NCBI GenBank assembly: GCA_018436725.1
Contig: JAHDKT010000026.1
Coordinates: 1 to 64,000 of the forward strand
DNA: 64,000 nucleotides
Reading direction: 5' to 3'
DNA from: Synergistaceae bacterium
GTDB taxonomy: Bacteria; Synergistota; Synergistia; Synergistales; Aminobacteriaceae
The position numbers were made by a program, and so were the translations under genes. The notes beneath the pieces are model-generated. The model searched no databases, was not told where the DNA came from, and saw only the letters and a program-made list of their open reading frames with translations. Positions 42,515-58,289 of this stretch are shown here, one piece after another; positions within the stretch are counted from its first letter, which is position 1, and each line of letters starts with the position of its first letter.

Positions 42515-43987
42515 TTAAAAAGATATGGATGTACGCAGCCGAATCATATGGTCGTCCTTCTGTGTCCATAAAGCGGCATTATCGAATTCGATCTTGTCGT
42601 ACAACAACTCGAACTGCAGGGAGGGCGAGTATAAATAACGAACGCCCAACATCCAGTTCGTGTGGTCCGCCATACCGTCTGCGGAAACGTCGTATTTCAC
42701 GTCGAGATAACGGAAAAAAGTAACCCATCGCTCGGACCACTCCTGTTCCGCAGCGATCAAAAGATAGTTCATCCCGTTGTTTCGCGTAGGATCGTCGATG
42801 CCGAAAGCAGGACTCGCCGCTGAGTCTTCCGCGATTTGCTCAGCGTAGGCGAGGCCGTTGATATGCGTCATGAACGTAGGATCGAGCTTGGCATACTCGA
42901 TCCACAAGCTCGAGTACTTCAACGTATCCCGCCCGATATCGAGAATCGCCTTGTACGCCTTGGGGGAGTCGTCCAGTCCGTTGTTCGCGGCCGCCCAATC
43001 ATACTTGTTCGCCGCGTACATACCACGCAATGCAATATCCGGGGTGAAATTCACTCCGAAGTCGATCCAGTATGATTGTACTTTTTCCAGTTCCGCATTG
43101 GAACCAAGCTTGAACTCCTTTACGAGTCCGTTGACGCTCATAGAAAGTTCTTCGTTGAAATCCAACCGCATTCGCGCACCGTAGATATCCTGTTCGCCTT
43201 CTTCGCTAGGATCGTCGTAATGCCCCCACAAAAGCGCGAACGCTCCCATTCCGAACTGCTTGTCGAACACCATGCCTTCGATGTTGTCGTTAAGAAACCA
43301 CGCATCGTCGCCATAGGCGTCGTTATACAGGCCTTCTTCCCAAACGATGCCATCCGTACGACCGAACTTGGCTGTAATCTCCCAAGGAAAATTCACGGTG
43401 ATGAAATTCTCTTTCCAATAAAGTCCTGATGAATTTCTTCTGGCAAGAAGGGCGCTGTAGGTTACTTTTTCGTCGATGCGCCGTACCAATTGAATCCAAT
43501 TGTCGTCGAAGCGCATAGAAAGGTCTTGTTTACCTTCTTCCGTATACGAACCGCCCTCGAGGTCGGCCCATTTCCAGTCCATTCGGAAAGAACCGCTGAT
43601 CGACCAACCCCCTAATTTTTCTTCGAGAACGGCAAGACGTCCGTCCACTTTATTCACCTTTACACCGAGCGCATCAAGCTCGTCCTTGAACTCGACGACC
43701 AGCCTTTTCAGCATTTCGACATCCTGTCGATCCGCTTTTTCCGCATCCATCGCAGCGAGAACCCTGGCCGTCGCGGAAGCGGCCTCATAACGAGTCATCG
43801 GTTGAGCGCCCTTATAGGTTCCATCGGGATAACCGGACAAAAATCCCTTTGCCGCAAGCTGGGCAATGGAGTCGTAAGCCCAATGCCCGTTCGGTACATC
43901 CATAAAAGGATTGGTTGCCGCGAGAGAAGGAAAGGAGAAAAACACGACGCTTAAAAATATCGCACCGAAGAGAAATCTCTTATTCAT
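42515..43987 (-). CDS. S-layer-homology (SLH) domain outer-membrane protein, OmpM-like porin
   Basis: Start at MNKRFLFGAIFL (signal peptide). N-terminal SLH motif (FMDVPNGHWAYDSIAQLAAKGFLSGYPDGTYKG), coiled-coil linker, then roughly 350-aa beta-barrel-like region with alternating aromatic residues. Lower-GC. Confidence 0.8.
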   Translation of the reverse strand: MNKRFLFGAIFLSVVFFSFPSLAATNPFMDVPNGHWAYDSIAQLAAKGFLSGYPDGTYKGAQPMTRYEAASATARVLAAMDAEKADRQDVEMLKRLVVEFKDELDALGVKVNKVDGRLAVLEEKLGGWSISGSFRMDWKWADLEGGSYTEEGKQDLSMRFDDNWIQLVRRIDEKVTYSALLARRNSSGLYWKENFITVNFPWEITAKFGRTDGIVWEEGLYNDAYGDDAWFLNDNIEGMVFDKQFGMGAFALLWGHYDDPSEEGEQDIYGARMRLDFNEELSMSVNGLVKEFKLGSNAELEKVQSYWIDFGVNFTPDIALRGMYAANKYDWAAANNGLDDSPKAYKAILDIGRDTLKYSSLWIEYAKLDPTFMTHINGLAYAEQIAEDSAASPAFGIDDPTRNNGMNYLLIAAEQEWSERWVTFFRYLDVKYDVSADGMADHTNWMLGVRYLYSPSLQFELLYDKIEFDNAALWTQKDDHMIRLRTSISF

Positions 43988-44150
43988 CGATTTTCCATCT
44001 TCTTTCTTGAAATAATCTTTAATGTTTACAAACCAACCATACGCCACGCCTCGAATCGCAGGAGACGTATCCCGTGCGCGGCAGAATTCCCCAAGGAATA
44101 CCCCCCTTCGCCCTTTTCAACTACGCGTCATCCAAACATGTACATTTTGC

Positions 44151-44664: not shown

Positions 44665-45300
44665 ATGGCGGACTTTCGCGCTTCGGCGCAGCGGCTTCAT
44701 CAGCGGATAACAACATGGCGGCGGGATCTGCACGGGATTCCCGAGACGGGAGTGGACACCCCGCAGACGGAGGCGTATATCTGCGCCGAGCTGGACAAAA
44801 TAGGCGTCTCCTACCGCAAGGGGCTCGGCAAACACGGCGTCGTCGCGCTCGTCGAGGGAAAGCATAAAAACAGGGTCTTCGCGATCCGCGCGGACATGGA
44901 CGGCCTTCCCATCAAGGAAGAGACGGGGCTTCCCTTCGCCTCGCAGAACGGTTGCATGCACGCATGCGGGCACGATGCGCACGCGGCGATGGGACTGGCC
45001 TCGGTGAAGCTGCTGCACGACGTCCGGGAGAAGATCGAGGGCTCGGTGCTCGTCGTCTTCCAGCCCGGCGAAGAGGGGTGCACCGACGGCCCCGGCGGAG
45101 CGAAGCGGATGCTCGACGACGGCGCGTTCGACGATCCGAAACCGGACGCGATGGTCGGCCTGCATACCGGCTGCAACGAGGCGAAGGGACAGACGTGGCC
45201 GCACCACAACAGCCGCTTCGACATCGACGAGGACGTCCTCTGGATCGGACCGGCCGTCATGGCGACGATGGCCTTCGACTGGCTGAAGAAACAGGCGTGA
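44665..45300 (+). pseudogene. internally deleted paralog of the M20D amidohydrolase gene at 27777-28982
   Basis: 211 aa versus 401 aa. Colinear through ...DAMVGLHTG, then jumps in-frame to CNEAKGQTWPHHNSRFDIDEDVLWIGPAVMATMA. The deletion removes the lid domain and one metal ligand region. Confidence 0.65.
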
Positions 45301-45428
45301 CGGTTTTCCGGAAAGAGTCGTGCGCTTTTCGAGCGTCCACACTGGAATGAAAGAAGCCGGGAACCACCCCCTCGCGGACTCTCGGCTTCTTTTTTCAACG
45401 TTCTTTCAAGCCTTGCAACGAAGGCGGT

Positions 45429-46688
45429 CTAGTTGCGCCCCCCTTTCGCGCGCACGCAGAGAAGAGGAAGAAGCGCCAACAGGAAGAACGCCGGGAAACC
45501 CGCGCTGTTGCAGCCGCCTCCCGAGTCGCCCGGAGCCGGATTGACCGGCGCGTCGACGACCACGAAGGAGTAGAAGTTGCCTCCGAGCGCGGCCGGGCCG
45601 AACTCCCACGACTCCGCTCCCTTGTAGGCCATCAGGCGAGTCCCCGCGGCGAACCAGAGAATGCCGTCCACATTGTCGTACTCCATGCGCCACGTAAATC
45701 CTGGACCGCTTGGATCTCTGTACACTTCGCCGACGTTTCCCGCGGCGAGTCCCTGGAGCGTCGTCTTGAAAATCCGGCTGTCGAACTGCGACCACGTCGC
45801 GTCGTAGGCTCCGGCGAAGACATAGACGTCGCCGTTCGCGGCGAAGGCCAGATCGCGGAAGTCGTACCCCCAGGCGTCGGGGAGAGCCGCCGCGGAAGCG
45901 TCGCTGGCCTTAAGGAGCGTCTCCACGGCGAGCGTGTTCGGGTGCACCCTCTGTATCATGGAGTCCGGGTTGAAGTCCCCGCCCTTTTGCATGCCGCCGT
46001 TGCCGACGACGTAGAGCATGCCGTTGTACGCCTTGATCGAGAGGGCGTTCTTGCCGACGTTCGCCGTAGCCATTACATTCAAGTCTCCGTCCAGCTTCAC
46101 GACTTTTCCGTCGGCGTATTCGAGCGAACTCCAATCGCCCTTCACCTCGTTGAAAAGAGCGAACAGGTAGTCGCCGACCCGCACGATCCCCTCGCCGTGG
46201 ACGTCGTACCCCGCGGTTCCGCTGAATGCGAACGAGGAGACCTCGCCGTATTCGTCGCTCCGCGTATCGATTTTCGAGACCTTCGCATTGTCGTAATCCA
46301 CGACGTACAGATACCGCCCCATCGCCGCCGCTCCGCGGCTGTTCGAAAACGAACGCCACCGCGCCTCTTTCAACGGCGCCCGATATTCTCCGCGCGCGTC
46401 GTATATCCAGACCGTGTCGGACTGTCCGCGCGCGTACTGGGCGAGGAGAACGCGCAGAGCGTTCTCCTCGTTCCTGAATCCGTAGACCTGATGATCCCCT
46501 CCGAGATTCGTCACGACGTTCTTCACCGGCGTTCCGGGAACGCCCGAAGCCGACACCGGAACTCGCCCCATGCTCCCCGAGGCGTACGTATCGTCCACCA
46601 CGGTGTAGACGACGCTCCCCCATGCGGCGATCGGGACCAGCAACACCGCGAGCAGCGTAATGAGCGCGCACCATCTTCTTTTCACCAT
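45429..46688 (-). CDS. secreted beta-rich protein with Synerg-CTERM-like C-terminal sorting tail (possible B12-capture protein)
   Basis: Signal peptide. Repeated blade-like segments (YVVDYDN, LYVVGNGG, DVYVFAG). C-terminal DSGGGCNSAGFPAFFLLALLPLLCVRAKGGRN resembles the GGGC-hydrophobic-basic tripartite Synergist-CTERM motif. Immediately downstream of btuB. Confidence 0.55.
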   Translation of the reverse strand: MVKRRWCALITLLAVLLVPIAAWGSVVYTVVDDTYASGSMGRVPVSASGVPGTPVKNVVTNLGGDHQVYGFRNEENALRVLLAQYARGQSDTVWIYDARGEYRAPLKEARWRSFSNSRGAAAMGRYLYVVDYDNAKVSKIDTRSDEYGEVSSFAFSGTAGYDVHGEGIVRVGDYLFALFNEVKGDWSSLEYADGKVVKLDGDLNVMATANVGKNALSIKAYNGMLYVVGNGGMQKGGDFNPDSMIQRVHPNTLAVETLLKASDASAAALPDAWGYDFRDLAFAANGDVYVFAGAYDATWSQFDSRIFKTTLQGLAAGNVGEVYRDPSGPGFTWRMEYDNVDGILWFAAGTRLMAYKGAESWEFGPAALGGNFYSFVVVDAPVNPAPGDSGGGCNSAGFPAFFLLALLPLLCVRAKGGRN

Positions 46689-46775: not shown

Positions 46776-48758
46776 TCAGAAGTTCCAGTGGAGCGTGAGA
46801 TACAACGTCCTCCCCCGAAGCGGGTAGTAAAGCGTTCGATCCGGTCCGGAGCCTCCTCCGAGACGCAGCGTTTCCGGCCCTCGGTCGAAGAGATCGTCCA
46901 CTCCCGCGACGACGCGGAGTCCGTCGGCAAGGTCGTACTTCCCTCCGACGCCTACGGTGAAAAGATTGCCCGACCGGATTGTTTCGGCGCTGTCGAAGTA
47001 CATCTCCCCGATATAGCGAAGCTCCGTAAAGAGGCTGCCCCTCCCGTCGGAGAGCGTTCTGGAAAGCCTGAGCAGCCCCTCCCATTCCGGACGATTGGGA
47101 AGGCGCTTCCCCTGCCTGTAGTCGCCGGGCGTCTCGTTCACCGCGTCCATCCAAGTGCACGAGGCGAAAAGTCCCCACGCTCCCCGTTCGATGGTCGACT
47201 CCAGCTCGACGCCCCGCACGCGCGCCTCGCCGACGTTCTGGTACACGCCGTAGCGGGGGCTCGTCATCACGAATTCGATCAGGTCGTTCGAACGTCTGGC
47301 GAAGAACGTCGCGCCGGCCGCGACGAGAAGATCGCCGACCGCGCCGCGCCACCGGACGCCGACATCCGCCTGGGTTCCGTCCTCCCATAACAGATCGGGG
47401 GCCGGTCGGATGCCCGCGCCGTCTCCGTAGCGCTCGTAGATGTTCGGCGCCCGGTTGTACGAACCGAAAGAGGCGCGCCAGCTCCAGCCGTTTTTCAGCT
47501 CGCGGATCACCCCGGCCCCCCATGAGAACTTGCCCTCTCCGTCGAGAACGTTCCAGCGAAGCACGGGCGTCAGCAGAAAATTCCCGGTTCCGTCGAGAGC
47601 GATCATATCCTGCAGGTGAATGTTCAGGCTCTCCTGCGCGAACGAATCCAGTCCGCCCAGCCCCTGGACGACATCGCCGCGCACGTCGAGCGTCTCGCGG
47701 GAGTAGTCGAGCAGCAGCTCCGCGAAGTGAGACTCCCCGATCGCAAGGGAAGCGTCCACGGCGAATCCCGCGCGCTGGGCGCGATACTCGTTATGCCGCT
47801 CCCCCCGGCCGCCGATCATGTCGTCCGGATCGTCGTACGTTTTCGTCTGCTCCAGCCACTCCGCCCTCCACCCCCACTCGACGTCTCCGGCGGTCTGCCT
47901 GCGCCCTACGGCGAGGCTCCACTGCCGTGTGTCCAGCTCTGCCCCGCAGGGCTCCTGCGCGCCGGGACGGTCGAAACCCGGAGCGGGAAGCGGCAGGGCC
48001 CGGTCGTCCTCTCTCCATGAAAACCGGGCGTGCCAGCTCTCGTCCTCCCACTTCATCAGCAGGTTCGTGCGCGAAAAGGAGTTGTTCCGCCGCTTCGCCT
48101 CGTAATCGTCCTCCGGCGTGTACGGAGTGTCGTTGTCGTTCCAGTATGAGAAATCTCCGTCGCTTCGTTCATGGGCGACGCCGAGGGAGAACGCGCCCCC
48201 GCCGAGCGGCCTGCTCCAGAAGAGTCCGCTCCGCGCTCCGCCGTAGGAGGAGACGCCGAGCGTCAGACTCGCTTCGGAGCCCTTCGGCTTCCTGGTGACG
48301 ATATTGATGACGCCGCCCATGGCCGCGCGGTTGAAACGAGAGGGAACGTACCCGCGATAGACCTCGATCCGCTCGACGTCGTCGACGGGAATCGCGGAGA
48401 GATCCACTGCGGATTCGCTCCCCAGATTCGCCAGCGTTCCGTCGATATAGACCGCCACCTGCGCCGACGTGCTTCCCCTGACGGAGGCCACGGTGTAGGC
48501 GCCGCGCCCTCGCGCCTCGACGACATGAAGGCCCGGAACGCGCTTCAGAAGATCGGGCAGACTCTTCTGCTCGCCCTGCATCTCCTCGGGACGCACCACC
48601 GTCACCGCCCCCGGAGAGAAGACCTCCTCCTCCAGCGGCGAGGCGACGACATGCTGCTCCGGCAAGAGCACCTCCGCCGCCGAGACCGGAGAAAGCGCCG
48701 CCGCGGCAAGGCAGAGAAAAAGCGCCCCCGCCCGCGTACACACTCTCATCGCGTTCAT
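46776..48758 (-). CDS. btuB: TonB-dependent outer-membrane receptor (cobalamin-type, BtuB-like)
   Basis: Start at MNAMRVCTRAG (signal peptide). TonB box region, plug and 22-strand barrel, C-terminal aromatic residue (..TLHWNF). Preceded by a cobalamin riboswitch. Confidence 0.8.
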   Translation of the reverse strand: MNAMRVCTRAGALFLCLAAAALSPVSAAEVLLPEQHVVASPLEEEVFSPGAVTVVRPEEMQGEQKSLPDLLKRVPGLHVVEARGRGAYTVASVRGSTSAQVAVYIDGTLANLGSESAVDLSAIPVDDVERIEVYRGYVPSRFNRAAMGGVINIVTRKPKGSEASLTLGVSSYGGARSGLFWSRPLGGGAFSLGVAHERSDGDFSYWNDNDTPYTPEDDYEAKRRNNSFSRTNLLMKWEDESWHARFSWREDDRALPLPAPGFDRPGAQEPCGAELDTRQWSLAVGRRQTAGDVEWGWRAEWLEQTKTYDDPDDMIGGRGERHNEYRAQRAGFAVDASLAIGESHFAELLLDYSRETLDVRGDVVQGLGGLDSFAQESLNIHLQDMIALDGTGNFLLTPVLRWNVLDGEGKFSWGAGVIRELKNGWSWRASFGSYNRAPNIYERYGDGAGIRPAPDLLWEDGTQADVGVRWRGAVGDLLVAAGATFFARRSNDLIEFVMTSPRYGVYQNVGEARVRGVELESTIERGAWGLFASCTWMDAVNETPGDYRQGKRLPNRPEWEGLLRLSRTLSDGRGSLFTELRYIGEMYFDSAETIRSGNLFTVGVGGKYDLADGLRVVAGVDDLFDRGPETLRLGGGSGPDRTLYYPLRGRTLYLTLHWNF

Positions 48759-48789
48759 ACGCACCACCCCTTTTTTCTTCCGAACATAG

Positions 48790-49045
48790 AAAAAAGGAGG
48801 AGACCGCCGGAATACGGTCCCCTCCTTCCGCAAGTACAGGCTTCCGGAAAAAGCGAAAAGACCGCCTCTCACCCGCGTGATCGACGAAAAAACAGGCTTT
48901 CGGCAGGTCTTCCGACTCTCGGTCATCCTACTCCCGCGTCTTCCCGCCCGAGGGCAGTGACGTCGTGCGGTTTCGTCCCGATTACGGCGGCGGGGCCGTT
49001 CCGGTTTCGCACCGGATTCCCTTCTCCGAAATCCTTCGATATTCG
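48790..49045 (-). ncRNA. cobalamin (B12) riboswitch with terminator expression platform, leader of btuB
   Basis: Minus-strand leader reads AGGGAATCCGGTGCGAAACCGGAACGGCCCCGCC...CGTCACTGCCCTCGGGCGGGAAG...GGAAGACCTGCCG. These parallel the E. coli btuB leader blocks (AGGGAATCCAGTGCGAATCTGG...ACACTGCCATTCGGTGGGAAG...GAAGACCTGCCG) and the B12-box. A ggagg(g)gaccg/cggtctcctcc hairpin plus TTTTTT follows at 48790-48830. Confidence 0.7.
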
Positions 49046-49089
49046 GTTGCGTTTCGCCGGGCTGCACGCTTTCCCCGGCCGTCCGGCGG

Positions 49090-49842
49090 TCAACGCAGAC
49101 GAAAAACAATGCTCGCCCGAGCGCGTATCTCTCCCGGAGCATCGAACGTCCAGAGCTTCGCCGCGTTCACCGCCGCCTCGTCCAGCCTGGAGAATCCGCT
49201 GCTCGTCGAAACCGCGACATCCACAGTCCGCCCCGAACGTATGGTCAGCAACAGATGCACAACGCCCTCTTCTTTTCGCCTTCGCGAGAAGAGAGGATAT
49301 TCCGGAGCGGTTCTCGACAGAATCCGGAGCGTCTCCACATCCACGGGCTCCCCGCGCACGCCCCCCGTCGTGGAGATCGCGCCCGCTCCGCTCCGCGCTT
49401 CCGTCTTCGTCCCGGCCGCCGTTTCGGAGGAGAGCGCGTCCGCTCCCGGACGGGGGGCGCCGGAGAGAGGCTCGTCAAGCGTTTTCTTCGGCTGCGCGCG
49501 CGGAGGTTGCTCCGGCTCGCTCTTCGCCTTCGGCGCGGCGGCTTTTTTCGCCCCGCCGCTCCGTGCGGGCTTCTTCTCCGATTTCGAAGGGAGAACGGCG
49601 GCCGGCTGCTCCTTTTGCGTCGTCTTCTCCTCTTTCTTCACCGGACGAACACTCTCGGGCGCTGGATCAGCCTTCGGGATCGGGAGCGCTTCCGCGGAAC
49701 CTTCCGAAATACGCGGAGCTCCATGGAGCACGACGCGGAACACTTCCGGCGGGTCCGCGTGCTCGACGTCGACCCCCGGCAACAGAAAGAGGAGCGAGTG
49801 GAGCGCGAGACTTACGCTCAGAGCGGCGATCCACCTTCTCAT
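49090..49842 (-). CDS. tonB: energy transducer TonB
   Basis: N-terminal TM anchor, Pro/Lys/Glu-rich spacer, C-terminal TonB domain (RILSRTAPEYPLFSRRRKEEGVVHLLLTI...). Start overlaps the exbD stop. Confidence 0.7.
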   Translation of the reverse strand: MRRWIAALSVSLALHSLLFLLPGVDVEHADPPEVFRVVLHGAPRISEGSAEALPIPKADPAPESVRPVKKEEKTTQKEQPAAVLPSKSEKKPARSGGAKKAAAPKAKSEPEQPPRAQPKKTLDEPLSGAPRPGADALSSETAAGTKTEARSGAGAISTTGGVRGEPVDVETLRILSRTAPEYPLFSRRRKEEGVVHLLLTIRSGRTVDVAVSTSSGFSRLDEAAVNAAKLWTFDAPGEIRARASIVFRLR

Positions 49843-50225
49843 CGAGCGCCGTCTCCTTGCAGGGCGAGCCCCGTCGAAACGATCCCCTCGCGTCGAAGCA
49901 CGTCCAGCACCTCCGCGACCACGCCGTACGGCGCTTCGCGATCTCCCGCCAACAGAATATCCCGCCGCGCCGCCGCGGCCGCCGCCGCGAGAGGAGCGAG
50001 CTCTTCCATTCGCGTCTCCCTGTCGCCCCAGAGCACGCTCCCGTCCTTCCTCACCGTGAGCAGAAGGGCGTTCTCCTCCGTTTTTGCAACGGCTTCGCCG
50101 ACCGGAAGATCCACCTCGATGCGCCCCTGAAGAAAGTTCGCGGTCAGGACGAAGAAGATGATCAGCATGAAGAGCACGTCGATCAGCGGCGTGATATCAA
50201 GCTCCGGCCGACGACGGCGTCTCAT
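49839..50225 (-). CDS. exbD: biopolymer transport protein ExbD/TolR
   Basis: 128 aa. Single TM (ITPLIDVLFMLIIFFVL), then a periplasmic domain. Confidence 0.8.
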   Translation of the reverse strand: MRRRRRPELDITPLIDVLFMLIIFFVLTANFLQGRIEVDLPVGEAVAKTEENALLLTVRKDGSVLWGDRETRMEELAPLAAAAAAARRDILLAGDREAPYGVVAEVLDVLRREGIVSTGLALQGDGAR

Positions 50226-50860
50226 GGCGCGCCCTTCCCTCGGAGGCCGGCGTTCGCCGGAGCCGGGAAACGCTCCCGGATCAAAAAGTCCGCGCCCCTC
50301 CTGAGACACTCCTCCTGGGAGTCGACGCGGCTGGACAGAAAGCCGTGGAGGAAGAGCGCGGGAATGGCGACGGAGAGCCCCGCGACGGTCGTAAAGAGCG
50401 CCTTCCAGATTCCGCCCGTCACCGCCGTAGCGGTGATCCGCCCTCCGGAATGCAGCCCGGCGAACATCTCCATCATGCCGAGCACCGTGCCCAGCAGCCC
50501 CAGAAGCGGCGCGATCCTCCCCGTCATCTCCAGAAAGAGCAGGCGCTTCTCCCACCGGTAGACCTCGCGGCGAACCTCCTGCTCCACCAGCACGCCCATC
50601 CCCTCGCGGTCGACGTCCCAGTGGGTCAGCGCGGCCTGAAAGATACGGTGCAGCGAGCTGTTCGAAGCGAAGACGACTCCGCGGGCGTCCTCCGCTCTCC
50701 CCGATGCGCACGCGGCCGCGAACTCCGCCTCCAGTCGCTCGGGGTTCGTTGAAGCCCGCCGGAAGAAAAGCAGCCGCTCCACGATCACGGCGACCGCCGC
50801 CACGGAGAGAGCGGCCAGCACCCACATCAAAAAACCTCCGGCCTCGAAGTACGACAGCAT
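50222..50860 (-). CDS. exbB: MotA/TolQ/ExbB proton channel
   Basis: Start at MLSYFEAGG preceded by GGAGG (alternative ATG at 50875). Three TM helices with the conserved TxxxGLxGTVxGM motif. Confidence 0.8.
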   Translation of the reverse strand: MLSYFEAGGFLMWVLAALSVAAVAVIVERLLFFRRASTNPERLEAEFAAACASGRAEDARGVVFASNSSLHRIFQAALTHWDVDREGMGVLVEQEVRREVYRWEKRLLFLEMTGRIAPLLGLLGTVLGMMEMFAGLHSGGRITATAVTGGIWKALFTTVAGLSVAIPALFLHGFLSSRVDSQEECLRRGADFLIRERFPAPANAGLRGKGAP

Positions 50861-50883: not shown

Positions 50884-51861
50884 CTACCTTCTCTTCCTCA
50901 GCAGCAGCCAGAGGAAGAAAAACGATCCGATGCTCGACGTGAGCGCGCCCACCGGAATCTCCGCCGGCGCCCAGAGCGTCCGGGCGGCGGTGTCGCACAG
51001 CACGAGAAAACCTCCTCCGAAGAGCAGCGAGGCTCCGCACAGCCGGGAGTGGTCCGACCCCACCAGAGATCGGCAGATATGAGGAACCATGAGCCCGACG
51101 AATCCGATAGGGCCGCAGAGGGCCACGTTCACGCCGACGGCCAGCGAAACCGCCAGAAAGAGCAGACGCCGCATCCTCTCCGCGGGAACGCCTCTGCTCA
51201 AGGCGAGTTCCTCGCCGCAGACGAAAAGATTCAACTCCCGCGAGCACAGGCGCGCCGTGCAGAATATCAGGAGCAGTCCGGGCAGAGCCGCGCGCACCGA
51301 GTCGAACCCCGCGGTCTGGATGCCCCCCATCGACCACCGCATGATTCTGAAGGTGTCGACGTATCCGCCGCCGTACTGCACGATCATGTTCAGGCTGCCG
51401 AAGAGAAAGCTGATCGCGATTCCCGCCAGCAGCAGCGTTCCCTCCGACATCCCCCCTCCGCGCAGCGTGCCCGCGGCGTAGATGACGGCCGTCGCGAGCA
51501 TCGCTCCCAGAAACGCGGATGTGGAAAGGGCCGAGAACAGTCCGAAGACGGTGAAGGAGAAGCCGAAGCGTATGGAGAGCACCGCGCCGAACGCCGCTCC
51601 CGTGGACACGCCCAGCATATCGGGAGAAGCCAGATCGTTGCGGAAGAGCGCCTGAAACACCATGCCGCAGAGGGAGAGCGTCGCTCCGGTGATCCACCCA
51701 AGGAGCACCCGCGGAAGGCGCAGCTCCCAGAAGATGCGCCCGCCGTTGCCGCCGCTCCGCAAAATGTCTTCCCAAGAGACGGAGTGCATCCCGACGAACG
51801 GAGCGACGGCGACGCAGAGCAGCGAGAAGAGCAGAACGGCGGGCAAAGCGAAGCGCTTCAT
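50884..51861 (-). CDS. btuC: FecCD/BtuC-family ABC permease (cobalamin/iron-chelate type)
   Basis: About 325 aa, 10 TM helices. Overlaps the upstream ATPase gene by 4 nt. Confidence 0.85.
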   Translation of the reverse strand: MKRFALPAVLLFSLLCVAVAPFVGMHSVSWEDILRSGGNGGRIFWELRLPRVLLGWITGATLSLCGMVFQALFRNDLASPDMLGVSTGAAFGAVLSIRFGFSFTVFGLFSALSTSAFLGAMLATAVIYAAGTLRGGGMSEGTLLLAGIAISFLFGSLNMIVQYGGGYVDTFRIMRWSMGGIQTAGFDSVRAALPGLLLIFCTARLCSRELNLFVCGEELALSRGVPAERMRRLLFLAVSLAVGVNVALCGPIGFVGLMVPHICRSLVGSDHSRLCGASLLFGGGFLVLCDTAARTLWAPAEIPVGALTSSIGSFFFLWLLLRKRR

Positions 51862-52646
51862 AACACCAGACCTCGCGGGGCGACGTACGGAACGCGCACC
51901 CCGTCTCCGCCGAAGGAGTGAAACTCGGTGTCGAAGATCTCGCGGAGCAGTCCGGCGTCCAAAAAGTCGTCCGTCGCGCCATCCCGGAGAACTCCGCCCC
52001 CTTTCAACGCGAGCACCCTGTCCGCGCTCCGCAGCGCCAGGTTGATATCGTGCGTCACCATGAGCACCGTGATTCCCCTCTCGCGATTGACGCGCTCCAC
52101 AAGAGCGGTCATCTCCACCTGACAGCGGTAGTCCAGAAACGACGTCGGTTCGTCCAGAAAAAGCATATCCGTCGTCTGCACGAGCGCCGCGGCAAGCAGC
52201 GCCTTTTGTCGTTCGCCGCCGCTCAGCAGATGCACGGGGCGATCCTGCAGCCCCTCCAGCTCCGTCAGACGGAAGGCGTTGGCGAGGATTTCGCGGTCGT
52301 CGACGCTCTCTCCGGAAAACGCCGACTTCCACGGATAACGCGAAAGAAGCAGAAACTCCCGCACCGTGAACGGAAGCGAATCGGTCCCCGACTGGGGGAT
52401 CCACGCGATGCGTCTGGCGATCCGACGCCGGGAGAGCCCCTCCATCGGACGCCCTTCGAGCAGCACCGTTCCCGACGATGGGCGCCGCAACCCGCCGAGA
52501 CACTTGAGAAGACTGGTCTTCCCCGCCCCGTTGGGACCCACGATCGCAAGAAACTCGCCTCGCCGCACCGAGAACGAAACCCCGTCGAGAGTTCGCGTCC
52601 CTCCAAGAACGAGGCCGAGAGCGCGGGCCTCCAGAAGAGGCGTCAT
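51858..52646 (-). CDS. btuD: ABC transporter ATP-binding protein (BtuD/FecE-like)
   Basis: Walker A GPNGAGKTS, signature LSGGERQ, Walker B LFLDEPT, H-loop. Confidence 0.85.
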   Translation of the reverse strand: MTPLLEARALGLVLGGTRTLDGVSFSVRRGEFLAIVGPNGAGKTSLLKCLGGLRRPSSGTVLLEGRPMEGLSRRRIARRIAWIPQSGTDSLPFTVREFLLLSRYPWKSAFSGESVDDREILANAFRLTELEGLQDRPVHLLSGGERQKALLAAALVQTTDMLFLDEPTSFLDYRCQVEMTALVERVNRERGITVLMVTHDINLALRSADRVLALKGGGVLRDGATDDFLDAGLLREIFDTEFHSFGGDGVRVPYVAPRGLVL

Positions 52647-53563
52647 GGAATCCACTCGATCTCCGGATGAAGAATTTCCGCGAAGGCGCGCAGAATCCGC
52701 CCTATTCTCGGCCCCGGACGGAGAAAGAGCGTCCCTTCCAGAATATGCACCCGCCCCTCCGTTACCGCGGGAACCTTCGCGCTCTCCGTCCACTGCCGCA
52801 CAAGACGCTCTCGGTCGAAAACATATTCGGCGTCGACCGGCTCCATCGAGTGGTAGAAGTTCCTGTCGCCGATCAAATCGACGATCACCTCCGGATTCAG
52901 CGAGAACAACCCTTCGACGGAGAGCAGCGGATAGTCCGCGCCGCCCGGCCCCACCGCGTTCGCGCCGCCCGCGAGTTCGATCAGCTCGTTGTAGAACGTA
53001 GCTCTCCCGGCCGCGTAAAAAGAGGTGATACGCGGCTCCGAAAGCTCCCTGGAAACGGCGAGCAACACCCGGGGACGGCTCGCCGTCGCGGCGACCTTCT
53101 CCGCGAGAGCGGCGATCTCCGCGCGCATCTTCCCGATCAACGCCGCGGCCGCCGCCTCTTCGCCGCACGCGCGGCCCAGCGCCTCGACCGAGAGAAGCAC
53201 CTCCTCCACCGAATTCTGCTTCAGCAGCACGTACGGAATCCCCAACCGCTCGATCTGCGGAAGGAACTGGAGATGAAGATCCTGAAAGACGATCAGGTCC
53301 GTTTCCGCGGCGAGAAGAGCTTCGAGATTGAGCGCGGCGAATCCTCCCAACCGCGGCTTCGTTCGCGCCTCCGGAGGCGTGTCGCAGAAATCGGTGACGC
53401 CGACGAGCCGATCTCCCAGTCCCAATGCGAAAAGGAACTCCGTCCCCACCGGAGAGAGCGACACGATCCGACGCAGCGCCCCCGACAGGGACGTCGCGAA
53501 AAAGAACACGAAAAGCAGCGCAAGGAGCGCTCCTCCCGTTCGAACTTTAAACCACGCTCGCAT
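52643..53563 (-). CDS. btuF: periplasmic substrate-binding protein, class III (BtuF-like cobalamin binding)
   Basis: Signal peptide. Two-lobed class III SBP pattern (IVSLSPVGTEFLFALGLGDRLVGVTDF...). RBS GGGGGAGG. First gene of the operon under the second riboswitch. Confidence 0.75.
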   Translation of the reverse strand: MRAWFKVRTGGALLALLFVFFFATSLSGALRRIVSLSPVGTEFLFALGLGDRLVGVTDFCDTPPEARTKPRLGGFAALNLEALLAAETDLIVFQDLHLQFLPQIERLGIPYVLLKQNSVEEVLLSVEALGRACGEEAAAAALIGKMRAEIAALAEKVAATASRPRVLLAVSRELSEPRITSFYAAGRATFYNELIELAGGANAVGPGGADYPLLSVEGLFSLNPEVIVDLIGDRNFYHSMEPVDAEYVFDRERLVRQWTESAKVPAVTEGRVHILEGTLFLRPGPRIGRILRAFAEILHPEIEWIP

Positions 53564-53584: not shown

Positions 53585-53775
53585 AAAGAGGAGACCGCAC
53601 GGGCCTCCTCGAATAAACACCAACCTACAGGGTGATACATGCCCGCGCACAACACCCGTGCGCTCTCCGTGATTTTCTGGCTTCCGAAAAAATTTTCGGT
53701 TACAGTGGCGGGGCCGCTCCGGACTTGCACCGGATTACTCCGCGGAGAACGCGTATTCAATTGCATTGAATTCTA
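53585..53775 (-). ncRNA. second cobalamin riboswitch with terminator, leader of btuFDC-exbBD-tonB
   Basis: Minus-strand leader contains AATCCGGTGCAAGTCCGGAGCGGCCCCGCCACTGTAACCG....CGGAAGCCAG (B12 box GCCACTG). A gaggaggcc...cggtctcctc hairpin plus TTTTTTT lies just before the RBS. Confidence 0.65.
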
Positions 53776-53949
53776 GGCCTTCTTACTTCGCGCGTCAACT
53801 GCGAAGAAGACCACGCGGTCGAAAAACAGAAAGGAGCGGTGCTCTTTTCTGTCGAATTTTCACCTAAAGCCGCCGATGATTCTCGGTCGTTTCGACTTGA
53901 AATATGCTACGATAGAAAACAAAACCACGCCGAGGAAGGATCATTCCCG

Positions 53950-55476
53950 ATGAGCAAAAAGCACCTCACGAACGGAAACGGAGCTTCAGTCGGCCTCGAT
54001 ATCGCGTCGCTTTCGGGGCATCTCTGGGAGTCCGCCAACATCCTGCGCGGCGCGGTGGACGCAGCCGACTTCAAGACGTACATCTTTCCGCTGCTCTTCT
54101 TCAAACGCATTTCGGACGTCTTCGACGAAGAGTACGCCGCCGCCATGGAGAAATCCGGCGGCGACGAGGAGTTCGCCGGGTTTCCCGAAAACTACCGCTT
54201 CCAGGTGCCGGAGGGGTGTCACTGGAAGGATGTCCGCGCCCGGAGCGAGAATATCGGGCACGCCCTGCAAAAAGCCATGCGCTGCATCGAGCAGGCCAAC
54301 CCCGAGACGCTGCACGGCATCTTCGGCGACGCCCAATGGACGAACAAAGAGCGCCTCCCCGACCCCCTTCTCAAGGATCTGATCGAGCACTTCTCCTCCC
54401 TCGACATGGGAAACGTCCGCTGCAGGGCCGACGTTCTCGGGCAGGCCTACGAATACCTGATCAAGAAGTTCGCCGACCTCGCCAACAAAAAGGCCGGAGA
54501 ATTCTACACCCCCCGCCCCGTCGTCTCTCTGATGGTGCGCATCCTCTCGCCGGAAGCGGGGGAAACCGTCTACGACCCCGCGTGCGGAACCGGCGGAATG
54601 CTTCTCGAAGCGCTGCACCACGTCAAGGAACGCGGCGGCGACGAAAACCTCATGCTGGGCAAGCTCTACGGGCAGGAGAAGAACCTGACCACCAGCGCCA
54701 TCGCGCGGATGAACCTCTTTCTTCACGGCGCGGAGGACTTCCATATCGCCCGCGGCGACACCCTCAGAAATCCGGCGTTCTACTCCGGAGACAGCCTCGC
54801 CGCCTTCGACTGCGTCATCGCCAATCCTCCCTTCTCCCTCGAAAAATGGGGAGAGGACGTCTGGATCAACGACCCGTACGGGCGCAACTTCGCGGGGCTT
54901 CCACCCGCCTCCACAGGAGACTTCGCATGGGTGCAGCACATGATCAAGTCCATGGCCCTCAAGAGCGGCCGCATGGCCGTCGTCCTTCCTCACGGCGTCC
55001 TCTTCCGCATGTCCAGAGAAGGAGCCATCCGGCGCGCGCTGCTGGAAATGGACCTTCTCGACGCCGTGATCGGCCTCGGACAGAACATCTTCTACGGAAC
55101 CGGGCTCGCCCCCTGCATCCTGGTCTTCCGCCACAGAAAGAAAGAAGAGCGCCGAGGCAGGGTGCTCTTCATCGACGCCTCCAAGGAGTACAAGACGGGC
55201 CGGGCCCAGAACGAACTGCTGCCCGAGCACGTCGAAAACATTCACCGCCTGTACGAGGAGTATCGGGATGTCGAAGGGCTCTGCCGGGTTGCCGAACTCG
55301 CCGAAATCCGCGAGAGCGACTTCAACCTGAACATCCCCCGCTACGTGGAGCCGCTGATCGAAGAGGAGACCGTCACTCTCGAGGAGGCCGTCGCCGGTCT
55401 CAAGGAGTCCCTTGCCGCCGCGTACGCCGCCGAGGACCGTCTGAAAGAGCTGCTGACCATGGAGGGAATGCTGTGA
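53950..55476 (+). CDS. hsdM: Type I restriction-modification DNA methyltransferase subunit M (copy 1)
   Basis: 508 aa. N-terminal HsdM N domain. AdoMet motif (DPACGTGGML). Catalytic NPPF. C-terminal helical HsdM tail. Confidence 0.9.
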   Translation: MSKKHLTNGNGASVGLDIASLSGHLWESANILRGAVDAADFKTYIFPLLFFKRISDVFDEEYAAAMEKSGGDEEFAGFPENYRFQVPEGCHWKDVRARSENIGHALQKAMRCIEQANPETLHGIFGDAQWTNKERLPDPLLKDLIEHFSSLDMGNVRCRADVLGQAYEYLIKKFADLANKKAGEFYTPRPVVSLMVRILSPEAGETVYDPACGTGGMLLEALHHVKERGGDENLMLGKLYGQEKNLTTSAIARMNLFLHGAEDFHIARGDTLRNPAFYSGDSLAAFDCVIANPPFSLEKWGEDVWINDPYGRNFAGLPPASTGDFAWVQHMIKSMALKSGRMAVVLPHGVLFRMSREGAIRRALLEMDLLDAVIGLGQNIFYGTGLAPCILVFRHRKKEERRGRVLFIDASKEYKTGRAQNELLPEHVENIHRLYEEYRDVEGLCRVAELAEIRESDFNLNIPRYVEPLIEEETVTLEEAVAGLKESLAAAYAAEDRLKELLTMEGML

Positions 55477-57014
55477 AGAAGAGCCGACCCATCACGCACG
55501 CCGAACTCGAATCCTACCTCTGGGGAGCGGCCGTACTGCTGCGCGGCTATATCGACGCGGGCGACTACAAGCAGTTCATCTTCCCGCTGCTCTTCTACAA
55601 GAGGCTGTGCGACGTCTACGACGAAGAGCTGGCCGAAGCGCTGGAGACGTCCGGCGGCGACATCGAGTACGCCTCGCTTCCGGAGCAGCACCGCTTCCAG
55701 ATCCCCGAAGGCGCGCACTGGAACGACGTCCGCACCGAGGTCCGCAACGTCTGAAAGGCTATTCAGAACGCTCTCCGCGCCATCGAAAAAGCGAACCCGG
55801 ACACGCTCTTCGGGGTCTTCGGCGACGCCCAATGGACCAACAAGGACCGCCTTCCGGACCACATGCTCCGCGAACTGATCGAGCACTTCAGCTCCCGGAC
55901 GCTCTCCATCGCCAACTGCCCCGAGGACGAACTCGGCACAGGGTACGAATTCCTGATCAAGAAGTTCGCCGACGACTCCGGACACACCGCAGCGGAGTTC
56001 TACACCAACCGCACCGTGGTCCACCTGATGACCGAGATGCTCGAACCGCTCTCCGGAGAATCCATCTACGACCCCACCTGCGGATCGGCCGGAATGCTCC
56101 TCTCGGCCGTCGCGTACCTTAAGCGCCGGCGGAAGGAGTGGCGGAACCTGCGCCTCTTCGGCCAGGAGAAGAACCTCCTGACCTCCGCCATCGGCAGAAT
56201 GAACCTCTTCCTGCACGGCGTCAAGGACTTCAGCGTCGTTCGGGGCGACACCCTGACGAACCCCGCCTTCGTCGAGGGCGACCGACTCATGCGGTTCGAC
56301 GTGGTGCTCGCCAATCCGCCCTACTCCATCAAACAGTGGGACCGCGACGCATGGAGCGCCGATCCGTGGGGGCGGAACATCTACGGCGCCCCGCCGCAGG
56401 GGCGCGCCGACTACGCCTTCTGGCAGCATATCGTCCGGAGCATGAAGCCCGACACCGGCCGCTGCGCCATCCTCTTTCCGCACGGCGTGCTCTTCCGCGA
56501 CGAAGAAGCCGCCATGCGCGAAAAGCTGATCGACCACGACGTGCTGGAGTGCGTGCTCGGCCTCGGGCCGAACCTCTTCTACAACTCCCCCATGGAGGCC
56601 TGCGTCGTGATCTGCCGCATGAACAAACCGCCGGAGCGAAGAGGCAGGGTCCTCTTCATCAACGCGGTGAACGAAGTCGCCCGCGAACGAGCGCAGAGCT
56701 TCCTGAGCGAAGAGCACATCGAAAAGATCGTCGAGGCCTACCGGACGTACGAGAATCGCGAGGGGTTCGCCCGCGTGGCCGAAAACGGCGAGATTCGGGC
56801 CAACGGCGGCAAACTCAGCCTTCCGCTCTATGTGCGAGGCGCCGACGGAAACGGCAACGGAGCGGGCGAACGCGTCGGCCTCAAGCAGTCGATAGCGGAG
56901 TGGCTGGAAAGCTCCGCCGCCCTGCGGGAGTCGATGGACGAGCTTTTCGCTCTGCTTGAAGAGCAGACGCGACCGGACGACGGCGAATTTGCGAAAGGAG
57001 GACGTCTGCGATGA
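55473..57014 (+). pseudogene. hsdM: Type I R-M methyltransferase subunit M paralog (copy 2) with in-frame TGA at 55752-55754
   Basis: GTG start overlapping the hsdM1 stop, preceded by GGAGGG. About 50% identical to copy 1 along its full length (DPTCGSAGML, NPPYS). A single TGA replaces the Gly aligned to hsdM1 ...SENIGHALQKA (VRNV*KAIQNALRA). Confidence 0.65.
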
Positions 57015-58186: not shown

Positions 58187-58289
58187 TATAAAATGATTTC
58201 TTAATAATTCTACATTTTATTGTTTTTTTAATTTTTTGCTTAAATCAAAGCGTGGTTGCTGGATATTTTATATACAGGGAGGTTCTCAA

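What the first reader, a model, noticed from the sequence alone, without database searches (positions are those of the whole stretch)
45429..46688. Secreted beta-propeller-like protein with Synerg-CTERM tail co-transcribed with btuB under a B12 riboswitch: BtuG analogue?
The gene lies immediately downstream of the riboswitch-controlled btuB on the same strand (88-nt gap). It has a signal peptide, repeated blade-like motifs and a C-terminal GGGC-hydrophobic-basic sorting signal. In Bacteroides, a surface-exposed beta-propeller lipoprotein (BtuG) captures B12 for BtuB. This could be an analogous, convergent surface B12-binding protein anchored by a different sorting system. It would be the first such protein in this lineage.
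Basis: inference. Interest (0 to 1): 0.7.

Follow-up and report, generated by a model that had tools for sequence, protein, structure and literature searches.

The report
BtuG-like B12-capture propeller in Synergistota
The gene after the riboswitch-controlled vitamin B12 outer-membrane transporter encodes a seven-bladed propeller whose closest structural match is BtuG, the Bacteroides surface protein that captures B12, but it sits in a different phylum and uses a different surface anchor, which suggests that B12 capture at the cell surface is not confined to Bacteroides.

Summary
ORF 45429-46688 (-) encodes 419 aa: a signal peptide, a propeller of 28 strands, and a Synerg-CTERM tail that scores above the curated cut-off. 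It lies 87 nt after a BtuB-like receptor. That receptor follows a 97-bit cobalamin riboswitch with a terminator.

The receptor-propeller pairing under a cobalamin riboswitch recurs in relatives of 23-98% identity. These come from Synergistota and Sporomusaceae, and include giant Sporomusa autotransporters with this propeller at the N-terminus. One paralogue has a receptor partner but no riboswitch.

The most likely function is a surface B12-binding lid for BtuB, anchored by its C-terminus instead of an N-terminal lipid. B12 binding, complex formation and surface exposure are untested. The papers I read state that BtuG, and lipoprotein-capped receptors in general, are exclusive to Bacteroidetes. 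I rate this a new variant of a known kind.

The parts
53770..53798 (-). Sigma-70-like promoter candidate for the whole btu operon (TTGACG-17-TAGAAT).
   Evidence: Consensus scan, 10 of 12 matches. This is a pattern match only.
53673..53736 (-). Leading cobalamin-type riboswitch aptamer (partial model match) upstream of btuF.
   Evidence: RF00174, 36.6 bits, above the gathering score. The equivalent place in L002 scores as the AdoCbl family RF01482 at 53.6 bits.
53588..53610 (-). Terminator-like hairpin with T-run between the leading aptamer and the btuF start. It is the likely expression platform.
52643..53563 (-). btuF-like periplasmic corrinoid-binding protein.
   Evidence: NCBIfam BtuF (NF002894) E 2.7e-20, below the cut-off. 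TroA_like is above its cut-off. Collinear with the Peripla_BP_2 gene of L002.
51858..52646 (-). btuD-like ABC ATPase.
   Evidence: Best hit is corrinoid ABC transporter ATPase, E 3e-59, below the cut-off.
50884..51861 (-). btuC-like ABC permease.
   Evidence: Best hits are BtuC permease models, E 8e-62, below the cut-off.
50222..50860 (-). exbB/tolQ-family energiser subunit.
   Evidence: MotA_ExbB in L002.
49839..50225 (-). exbD/tolR-family subunit.
   Evidence: ExbD in L002.
49090..49842 (-). tonB.
   Evidence: TIGR01352 TonB C-terminal domain, 42.4 bits, above the cut-off.
48885..49045 (-). Second, internal full-length cobalamin riboswitch aptamer directly upstream of btuB.
   Evidence: RF00174, 97.2 bits, E 5e-23. 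It lies in a stretch of about 250 nt that is absent from the 89%-identical relative L002. L003 also shows no aptamer at this place, and its tonB-receptor gap is 74 nt.
48792..48829 (-). Intrinsic terminator (16-bp stem then TTTTTT). It is the expression platform of the internal riboswitch.
46776..48758 (-). BtuB-like TonB-dependent outer-membrane receptor (660 aa).
   Evidence: Plug plus barrel domains. Best NCBIfam match is TonB-B12. Closest PDB sequence is E. coli BtuB.
46617..46688 (-). Signal peptide of the target protein (aa 1-24, predicted cleavage AWG|S, no lipobox).
   Evidence: Read from the sequence. The same pattern is present in the orthologues.
45558..46616 (-). Seven-bladed beta-propeller domain (aa 25-377), BtuG-like.
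45432..45524 (-). Synerg-CTERM sorting signal (aa 389-419). It has a Gly/Ser cluster, the invariant Cys393, a Leu-rich transmembrane segment with Pro408, and a basic end.
   Evidence: TIGR04564, 24.6 bits against a 22.5 cut-off. The motif is conserved in the orthologues. It fits the description in bioRxiv 10.1101/2023.06.07.544157.
45359..45371 (-). Weak terminator-like hairpin after the target gene. It may mark the end of the operon.
   Evidence: pattern match only. Collinearity with L002 ends near 45460.

Best explanation
The gene encodes a distant relative of BtuG, the Bacteroides surface protein that captures vitamin B12. It most likely acts as the extracellular partner, or lid, of the BtuB receptor encoded just upstream.

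Shown here:
- It is a Sec-signal-bearing seven-bladed propeller whose best structural and profile matches are BtuG.
- It is the last gene of a btuF-btuD-btuC-exbB-exbD-tonB-btuB operon.
- Two cobalamin riboswitches sit in that operon, and the second, with a terminator, lies directly before btuB.
- Relatives in two phyla keep the receptor-propeller pair behind a cobalamin riboswitch.

Inferred steps:
1. When B12 is scarce the riboswitch terminators are not formed, so btuB and the propeller gene are transcribed together.
2. The protein is exported by Sec and held in the inner membrane by its C-terminal helix.
3. The predicted Synerg-CTERM protease MrtS cleaves it near Cys393, probably with modification of that Cys, and a type II secretion system moves it to the cell surface. 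This route comes from Haft's in-silico model, not from any test here.
4. On the surface, one face of the propeller binds corrinoids tightly. The propeller docks on BtuB and hands the ligand over.
5. TonB-ExbBD then drives import, and BtuFCD completes uptake.
For: Fold:
- The model is confident (pLDDT 84, pTM 0.82) with 28 strands.
- Foldseek ranks cobalamin-bound BtuG structures at 10 of its first 12 places.

Sequence:
- A profile of the 15 closest relatives finds only BtuG1 chains among 177,635 PDB sequences (E 8e-6). The match lies over the family's most conserved motif, VGKNA...YV..GG.Q..G..N.
- The broad profile gives E 3e-8.
- hhalign against BtuG1 fragments gives 90.5% probability and E 1.3e-6.

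Context:
- The operon genes are annotated, and the riboswitches and terminators.
- There is no terminator-like hairpin in the 87-nt gap.
- Receptor-propeller adjacency behind a cobalamin riboswitch is seen in the window, L007, L002, L003, L006, L012 (Anaerospora), L013, L014, L015 and L017 (Sporomusa aerivorans), down to 23% identity and with different flanking genes.
- In L023 a riboswitch sits directly before the propeller gene.

Anchor:
- Synerg-CTERM scores above its cut-off.
Against: - No binding, localisation or interaction data exist.
- The protein does not match Pfam PF16819 (DUF5074), the family that BtuG1 fragments carry.
- Identity to BtuG is only 14-16%.
- Designed Kelch repeats score as well as BtuG against the broad profile, because their repeats sum.
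- Published BtuG1 B12-contact residues could not be mapped confidently. The hhalign register outside residues 119-259 is unreliable, and a manual extension of the alignment puts non-charged residues of this protein opposite BtuG1 Arg244 and Glu249.
- One paralogue (L025) pairs with a receptor without any riboswitch, and a branch without signal peptides has no receptor neighbour. The fold alone therefore does not guarantee a B12 role.
- The surface-sorting route for Synerg-CTERM is itself only predicted in silico.
Confidence: 0.7

Rival explanations
1. It is a surface accessory or lid of the TonB-dependent receptor that does not bind free B12 itself. It might stabilise the receptor, shield it from phages and colicins, or dock a corrinoid-carrying protein or vesicle.
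For: Receptor adjacency is the most general feature of the family. It also holds for a paralogue without a riboswitch (L025). Known BtuG1 contact residues are not demonstrably conserved.
Against: Of the thirteen family contexts examined, ten lie behind a cobalamin riboswitch with an adjacent receptor and one more has a riboswitch directly before the propeller gene. The best structural matches are the B12-bound BtuG proteins. Conserved polar and aromatic residues sit in the same class of loops that carry BtuG1's contacts; this last point is inferred.
Confidence: 0.15
2. It is an exported enzyme with a lactonase-like or YVTN-type propeller that acts on corrinoids or another substrate, for example by remodelling cobamides before uptake.
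Against: No enzyme family matches by sequence. BtuG outranks all enzymes by both structure methods and is the only significant profile hit with the orthologue profile. The C-terminal surface anchor and the giant autotransporter fusions suit a binding module.
Confidence: 0.07
3. It is an unrelated surface-layer or adhesin-type propeller that happens to lie next to btuB.
Against: The pairing with a receptor behind a cobalamin riboswitch is kept across two phyla while the flanking genes change. Chance adjacency cannot explain that.
Confidence: 0.03

Closest known systems
BtuG1/BtuG2/BtuG3 of Bacteroides thetaiotaomicron (surface B12-binding lipoprotein lids of BtuB; Pfam PF16819; PDB 8blw, 8ptf, 8bn0, 3dsm)
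   Same: Both are seven-bladed propellers, and BtuG is the best structural match. There is weak but specific profile similarity. Both are encoded next to btuB in B12-riboswitch loci, and both are exported with a membrane or lipid anchor.
   Different: Identity is 14-16%, and there is no PF16819 match. The phylum is Synergistota, with relatives in Sporomusaceae, not Bacteroidota. This protein has a signal-peptidase-I type signal plus a C-terminal Synerg-CTERM anchor, where BtuG has an N-terminal lipobox Cys and the Bacteroidota lipoprotein export signal. It is about 50 residues longer. B12 binding and complex formation are not shown.
E. coli YncE and the YVTN / 'YncE family' propellers
   Different: No significant sequence match was found. 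YncE is periplasmic and has no known B12 role (own knowledge). It has no C-terminal sorting signal.
Synerg-CTERM proteins (TIGR04564) and the predicted MrtS plus type II secretion sorting system (Haft, bioRxiv 10.1101/2023.06.07.544157)
   Same: The tail matches the model above its cut-off and has the described features: a Gly/Ser cluster, an invariant Cys, a Leu-rich helix with Pro, and a basic end.
   Different: That work defines a sorting signal, not a function. The passages read assign no cargo a role in nutrient uptake.
Other Bacteroides surface B12 binders (BtuH; BtuJ/DUF4465) and lipoprotein lids of TonB-dependent transporters (SusD-like and others)
   Same: The general logic is the same: an extracellular binder feeds a TonB-dependent transporter.
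   Different: The folds are unrelated: beta-jelly roll for BtuJ, a novel globular fold for BtuH, helical for SusD. No sequence or structural match to them was seen here.

Membership tests
BtuG (Bacteroidota surface B12-binding lid of BtuB) | Seven-bladed beta-propeller fold closest to solved BtuG structures. | tested here: met
BtuG (Bacteroidota surface B12-binding lid of BtuB) | Match to the family's sequence model (Pfam PF16819/DUF5074, carried by BtuG1 fragments). | tested here: not met
   No PF16819 hit at E <= 1 for the window protein. Only 1 of 108 family members hits it weakly, E 0.0086.
BtuG (Bacteroidota surface B12-binding lid of BtuB) | Remote sequence homology detectable by profile methods. 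| tested here: met
   Orthologue profile against PDB sequences: only BtuG1 is significant, E 8e-6. Broad profile: E 3e-8. hhalign: 90.5% probability, E 1.3e-6 over 123 columns. The match covers about 2-3 blades only.
BtuG (Bacteroidota surface B12-binding lid of BtuB) | Encoded next to btuB in a B12-riboswitch-controlled locus. | tested here: met
   Window. Relatives.
BtuG (Bacteroidota surface B12-binding lid of BtuB) | N-terminal lipobox cysteine followed by the Bacteroidota lipoprotein export signal. | tested here: not met
   The N-terminus ends AWG|SVVYT with no lipobox Cys. The feature is described in PMC6143338. Anchoring here is by C-terminal Synerg-CTERM.
BtuG (Bacteroidota surface B12-binding lid of BtuB) | Conservation of the published B12-contact residues (BtuG1 Phe60, Glu139, Arg141, Arg244, Glu249, Tyr290). 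| tested here: inconclusive
   The BtuG1 numbering was reconstructed from fragments and agrees with four of the five residues I checked (Phe60, Arg141, Arg244, Glu249); the fragment sequence has Gln where Glu139 is reported. hhalign places the conserved HGE(166) opposite the Glu139/Arg141 region. The register outside residues 119-259 is unreliable, and no 3D superposition was possible.
BtuG (Bacteroidota surface B12-binding lid of BtuB) | Binds cobalamin with pM-fM affinity and forms a stable capped complex with BtuB. | not testable with these tools
   This needs biochemistry, or a multimer prediction with coordinates.
Synerg-CTERM sorting-signal proteins (TIGR04564) | HMM score above the curated cut-off at the extreme C-terminus. 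| tested here: met
   24.6 bits against 22.5, aa 389-413.
Synerg-CTERM sorting-signal proteins (TIGR04564) | Gly/Ser cluster ending in an invariant Cys, a Leu-rich transmembrane segment with an invariant Pro, and a basic cluster. | tested here: met
   SGGGC393-NSAGFPAFFLLALLP408LLCVRAKGGRN. Gly392, Phe398 and the Cys-containing motif are conserved in the Synergistota orthologues. The feature is described.
Synerg-CTERM sorting-signal proteins (TIGR04564) | Host belongs to Synergistota. | tested here: met
   The 98%- and 89%-identical loci come from MAGs named Synergistales and Aminobacteriaceae. Source names are Synergistota or Synergistaceae.
Synerg-CTERM sorting-signal proteins (TIGR04564) | Cognate MrtS (CPBP-type protease) and dedicated type II secretion genes in the genome. 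| not testable with these tools
   Only 64 kb is available. A crude motif scan found no CPBP-like ORF in the window.
Cobalamin riboswitch regulon (RF00174) | Aptamer above the gathering score, on the same strand, upstream, with an expression platform. | tested here: met
   97.2 bits at 48885-49045 (-), with a terminator at 48792-48829.

The most novel reading that the evidence does not exclude
This protein may be the founding example of a large family with no Pfam model: at least 508 clusters at 50% identity. The family would consist of BtuG-related propellers that capture B12 at the surface of diderm bacteria outside the Bacteroidota, in Synergistota and Sporomusaceae.

The same propeller appears on at least three chassis:
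- a Synerg-CTERM anchor;
- the tip of 1,200-4,000-aa autotransporters in Sporomusa;
- a short helical tail.

If so, receptor-capping B12 capture would be widespread and possibly ancient, not a Bacteroidetes invention. It would also give Synerg-CTERM sorting its first proposed physiological cargo, which would make that pathway testable.
Probability: 0.5. Interest if true: 0.75.

Novelty: new variant of a known kind. Interest (0 to 1): 0.66.

Why it matters
Vitamin B12 is a contested nutrient in anaerobic communities. BtuG is the best-studied tool for capturing it, and binds strongly enough to strip B12 from human intrinsic factor. The BtuG papers state that BtuG, and lipoprotein-capped TonB-dependent transporters in general, are exclusive to Bacteroidetes (PMC6143338, PMC10404256).

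A BtuG-like partner of BtuB in Synergistota and Sporomusaceae would overturn that view. It would show how the same module can be mounted on the surface by a quite different sorting route. It would supply a concrete cargo for studying the still hypothetical Synerg-CTERM/MrtS pathway. It would also flag several hundred unannotated proteins as candidate corrinoid binders, which could be useful as B12 capture reagents.

Tried and rejected
- Pfam and NCBIfam scans of the protein gave nothing except the Synerg-CTERM tail. A Pfam scan of 108 family members gave only scattered weak Kelch, LVIVD and DUF5074 hits.
- Single-sequence phmmer against the PDB gave only a sub-threshold hint to BtuG1, E 0.18.
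- The afdb50 fold library was not available.
- The search for related loci failed with the broad alignments because no stretch was conserved enough. With closer alignments it returned only 6 loci per collection, so no large-scale synteny statistics could be made.
- The word-indexed homologue search with the broad profile added almost nothing. Searching with a BtuG1 fragment returned only short fragments. I stitched these into a partial BtuG1 sequence for hhalign.
- A greedy hhalign alignment to map B12-contact residues gave an unreliable register outside the core. I therefore make no residue-level claim. My manual alignment of the N-terminal motif YTVVDDTY with BtuG1 YILSEGLF60 conflicts with that register, so I dropped it.
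- I considered predicting a fused BtuB-linker-propeller complex but did not run it.
- A crude scan for a CPBP/MrtS-like gene or a second Synerg-CTERM tail in the window found none.
- The 'convergent analogue' reading was rejected in favour of distant homology.

Full report
**Observation**

The minus-strand ORF 45429-46688 encodes 419 aa. It starts with ATG, 8 nt after a GGAGGGG Shine-Dalgarno sequence. It lies 87 nt downstream of the stop codon of ORF 46776-48758. That upstream ORF has Plug and TonB-dependent barrel domains. Its best NCBIfam match is the TonB-dependent B12 receptor, below the cut-off. Its closest solved relative by sequence is E. coli BtuB, E 2e-20.

Rfam places a full cobalamin aptamer at 48885-49045 (-), 97.2 bits, E 5e-23. 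A 16-bp hairpin followed by a T-run at 48792-48829 lies between the aptamer and the btuB start. The scan reports no terminator-like hairpin in the btuB-target gap.

The N-terminus (MVKRR, a hydrophobic core, then AWG|S) is a classical signal peptide without a lipobox. The C-terminus (SGGGC-NSAGFPAFFLLALLPLLCVRAKGGRN) matches TIGR04564 Synerg-CTERM above its curated cut-off, 24.6 against 22.5 bits.

**The operon**

Upstream on the same strand lie btuF-, btuD-, btuC-, exbB-, exbD- and tonB-like genes. They are preceded by a second, weaker cobalamin-type aptamer at 53673-53736, a terminator-like hairpin, and a promoter-like site. The target is thus the last gene of a complete B12 uptake operon.

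**Fold**

Fifteen homologues were found by the indexed search. All are from Synergistota except two from Sporomusa-like bacteria. With their alignment, AlphaFold2 gave a confident model: pLDDT 84, pTM 0.82. It has 28 beta strands between residues 25 and 377, which is seven four-stranded blades, and a disordered or helical tail.

Foldseek against the PDB puts cobalamin-bound BtuG structures from Bacteroides thetaiotaomicron at 10 of its first 12 places. The best is 8ptf, E 1.3e-11, TM 0.69 normalised to the target.

**Sequence relation to BtuG**

The protein itself matches no Pfam family. A profile of the 15 close relatives, searched against all PDB sequences, returns BtuG1 chains as the only significant hits, E 8e-6. 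The alignment lies over the family's most conserved motif, VGKNA..(G)..YV..GG.Q..G..N..S....V, against BtuG1 VGRNAEDICVQNGKLYVSNSGGLDYSGPGVDTTVSVID.

A broader profile of 108 sequences improves this to E 3e-8. Designed Kelch repeats then score similarly, because their repeats sum.

I rebuilt most of the BtuG1 propeller from database fragments. Three of those fragments carry Pfam PF16819/DUF5074. The rebuilt numbering reproduces four of the five published contact residues I checked: Phe60, Arg141, Arg244 and Glu249. The fragment sequence has Gln where Glu139 is reported. Tyr290 lies outside the printed alignments and was not checked against them.

hhalign between the family and these fragments gives 90.5% probability and E 1.3e-6 over 123 columns, in blade register. 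With the narrow profile it gives 68%. I conclude that the protein is probably a very distant homologue of BtuG rather than a convergent look-alike. It is not a member of the Pfam family as currently modelled.

Residue-level conservation of the B12 site could not be settled. hhalign puts the conserved HGE(166) opposite the Glu139/Arg141 region of BtuG1. The register outside residues 119-259 is unreliable, and no coordinates were available for superposition.

As an inference only: the conserved polar and aromatic residues of the family sit in loops that follow the first strand of each blade. That is the same class of loops that carries several of BtuG1's contacts.

**Comparative context**

| Locus | Identity to window protein | Arrangement |
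|---|---|---|
| L002 (MAG) | 89% | btuF-btuD-btuC-exbB-exbD-tonB-receptor-propeller; AdoCbl-type riboswitch before btuF; flanking genes differ from the window |
| L003-L005 | 59% | Same operon; flanks differ again |
| L006 (Sporomusa-like genome) | 30% | Cobalamin riboswitch, 880-aa receptor, propeller |
| L012 (Anaerospora hongkongensis) | 29% | Cobalamin riboswitch, 911-aa ORF in the receptor position, propeller |
| L013 (metagenome) | 28% | Riboswitch, receptor, propeller |
| L014 (metagenome) | 23% | Riboswitch, 921-aa Kelch protein, receptor, propeller, then an HbpS-like gene |
| L015 (metagenome) | 36% | Riboswitch, receptor, propeller |
| L023 | 39% | Riboswitch directly before the propeller gene |

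The receptors in five of these loci (L006, L013, L014, L015, L017) have the TonB-B12 model as their best or second-best NCBIfam match, always below the cut-off.

**Size and shape of the family**

An exhaustive profile search shows the family is much larger than the indexed search suggested. There are 508 clusters at E <= 1e-3 and 155 at E <= 1e-30. Of the 162 sequences inspected:

- 89 carry Cys-containing C-terminal sorting tails;
- 9 are proteins of 1,200-4,000 aa whose ends look like autotransporter barrels;
- about 48 lack a signal peptide.

Cluster names for two of the giants (P0056, P0067) identify them as autotransporters of Sporomusa ovata and S. aerivorans. One of them (P0056, 3,216 aa) again follows a receptor behind a 110-bit cobalamin riboswitch.

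There are exceptions:

- A distant Synerg-CTERM paralogue (L025) precedes a Plug-domain receptor and has no detectable riboswitch.
- A member without a signal peptide (L016) has no receptor neighbour, although two cobalamin riboswitches lie 5.5 kb away.
- Another member without a signal peptide (P0020) sits next to an amidase gene.

The propeller family as a whole is therefore best described as partners of TonB-dependent receptors. The branch that includes the window protein is tied firmly to B12.

**Mechanism**

Shown here: the protein is co-oriented with BtuB, no terminator separates the two genes, both lie behind a B12 riboswitch with a terminator, and the protein has an export signal, a BtuG-like fold and a Synerg-CTERM tail.

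Taken from published work:

- BtuG is a surface lipoprotein that binds B12 with pM-fM affinity and caps BtuB like a pedal-bin lid. A BtuB loop dislodges the vitamin into the transporter on closure (PMC6143338, PMC10404256).
- Synerg-CTERM tails are predicted to be cut by the CPBP-type protease MrtS and delivered to the surface with a dedicated type II secretion system. The invariant Cys is possibly modified (bioRxiv 10.1101/2023.06.07.544157).

Inferred: the window protein is displayed on the outer surface through its C-terminus, binds corrinoids on one propeller face, docks on BtuB and hands over the ligand. TonB-ExbBD and BtuFCD then complete uptake. I put this at about 0.7.

The rivals, all rated lower, are a lid that does not bind B12, an exported enzyme, and a chance neighbour.

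**Novelty**

[quoted passage not shown] A 2026 review, in the passages read, mentions relatives outside Bacteroidota only for BtuH and BtuJ. Full-text searches found no paper linking BtuG to Synergistota, Negativicutes or Sporomusa. Only three papers, all on Bacteroides, mention BtuG homologues. The library is incomplete, so prior mention elsewhere cannot be excluded.

I classify the finding as a new variant of a known kind. The module and the logic are the same. The lineage is new, the sequence is below family-model detection, and the anchoring chemistry is different.

**Limits**

No experiment supports binding, localisation or complex formation. The structural margin over other propellers is small. 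Synteny statistics rest on about a dozen contexts. The sorting pathway is itself hypothetical.

Noticed in passing
window 48781-49087 (-): The full cobalamin riboswitch and terminator between tonB and btuB lie in a stretch of about 250 nt that is absent from the otherwise collinear 89%-identical relative L002, where the tonB-btuB gap is 54-84 nt. L003, whose propeller is 59% identical, shows no aptamer there and has a 74-nt gap. The stretch is present in the 98%-identical MAG locus L007. This lineage therefore has a second, internal riboswitch dedicated to btuB and the propeller gene.
   Followed up: partly
L017 2762-15651 (Sporomusa aerivorans CP156926.1); also P0067, P0088, P0106, P0120, P0138, P0149, P0155: Proteins of 1,200-4,000 aa carry the same propeller at their N-terminus and end in a motif (..RW[ST]F) that looks like an autotransporter barrel. 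Two of them are named as Sporomusa autotransporters. The one examined sits directly after a 922-aa TonB-dependent receptor behind a 110-bit cobalamin riboswitch. This may be a B12-binding head on a long stalk.
   Followed up: partly
L016 8001-9242; P0020, P0021, P0081 and about 45 other clusters: One branch of the family has no signal peptide at all, but shares the Lys/Glu-rich C-terminal helix of the Sporomusa proteins. It has no receptor neighbour. One member lies 5.5 kb from two divergent cobalamin riboswitches, between FG-GAP and Big_5 proteins. Another lies next to an Amidase_2 gene. Whether or how these are exported, and their function, are unknown.
   Followed up: partly
L025 597-2605: A distant Synerg-CTERM paralogue (P0045) precedes, rather than follows, a Plug-domain receptor, overlapping its start. 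It has no riboswitch in its 230-nt leader. Some family members may therefore serve receptors for other substrates.
   Followed up: partly
L014 210-8269: One cobalamin riboswitch heads a 921-aa Kelch/CHB_HEX_C/TIG protein, an 887-aa receptor, the propeller homologue and an HbpS-like (PF03928) gene. This suggests a larger multi-protein surface system for corrinoid capture.
   Followed up: no
L002 2612-2771 (-): In the 89%-identical relative, a 96-bit cobalamin riboswitch lies directly upstream of methylmalonyl-CoA mutase genes, which encode a B12-dependent enzyme. That is an unusual target for a B12 riboswitch. The matching leader region of the window seems to lie at its far end, around 63620-63765.
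   Followed up: no
window 53839-60866 (+): Type I restriction-modification genes (two HsdM-like methylases, an HsdS, and a helicase/restriction subunit) sit immediately upstream of the btu operon. L002 instead has the mutase genes there, so this is probably an inserted island.
   Followed up: partly
window 44665-45300 (+): A 211-aa fragment of an M20 amidohydrolase matches two separate pieces of a full-length gene in L002. Collinearity with L002 breaks just downstream of the target gene, which indicates a rearrangement and a likely pseudogene.
   Followed up: partly
window 42515-44047 (-): A 510-aa protein has a signal peptide, an N-terminal SLH domain, a coiled coil and a porin-like C-terminal part. 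It gives a weak match to the 'iron uptake porin' family. From my own knowledge, this resembles the OmpM-type outer-membrane tethers of Synergistota and Negativicutes.
   Followed up: no
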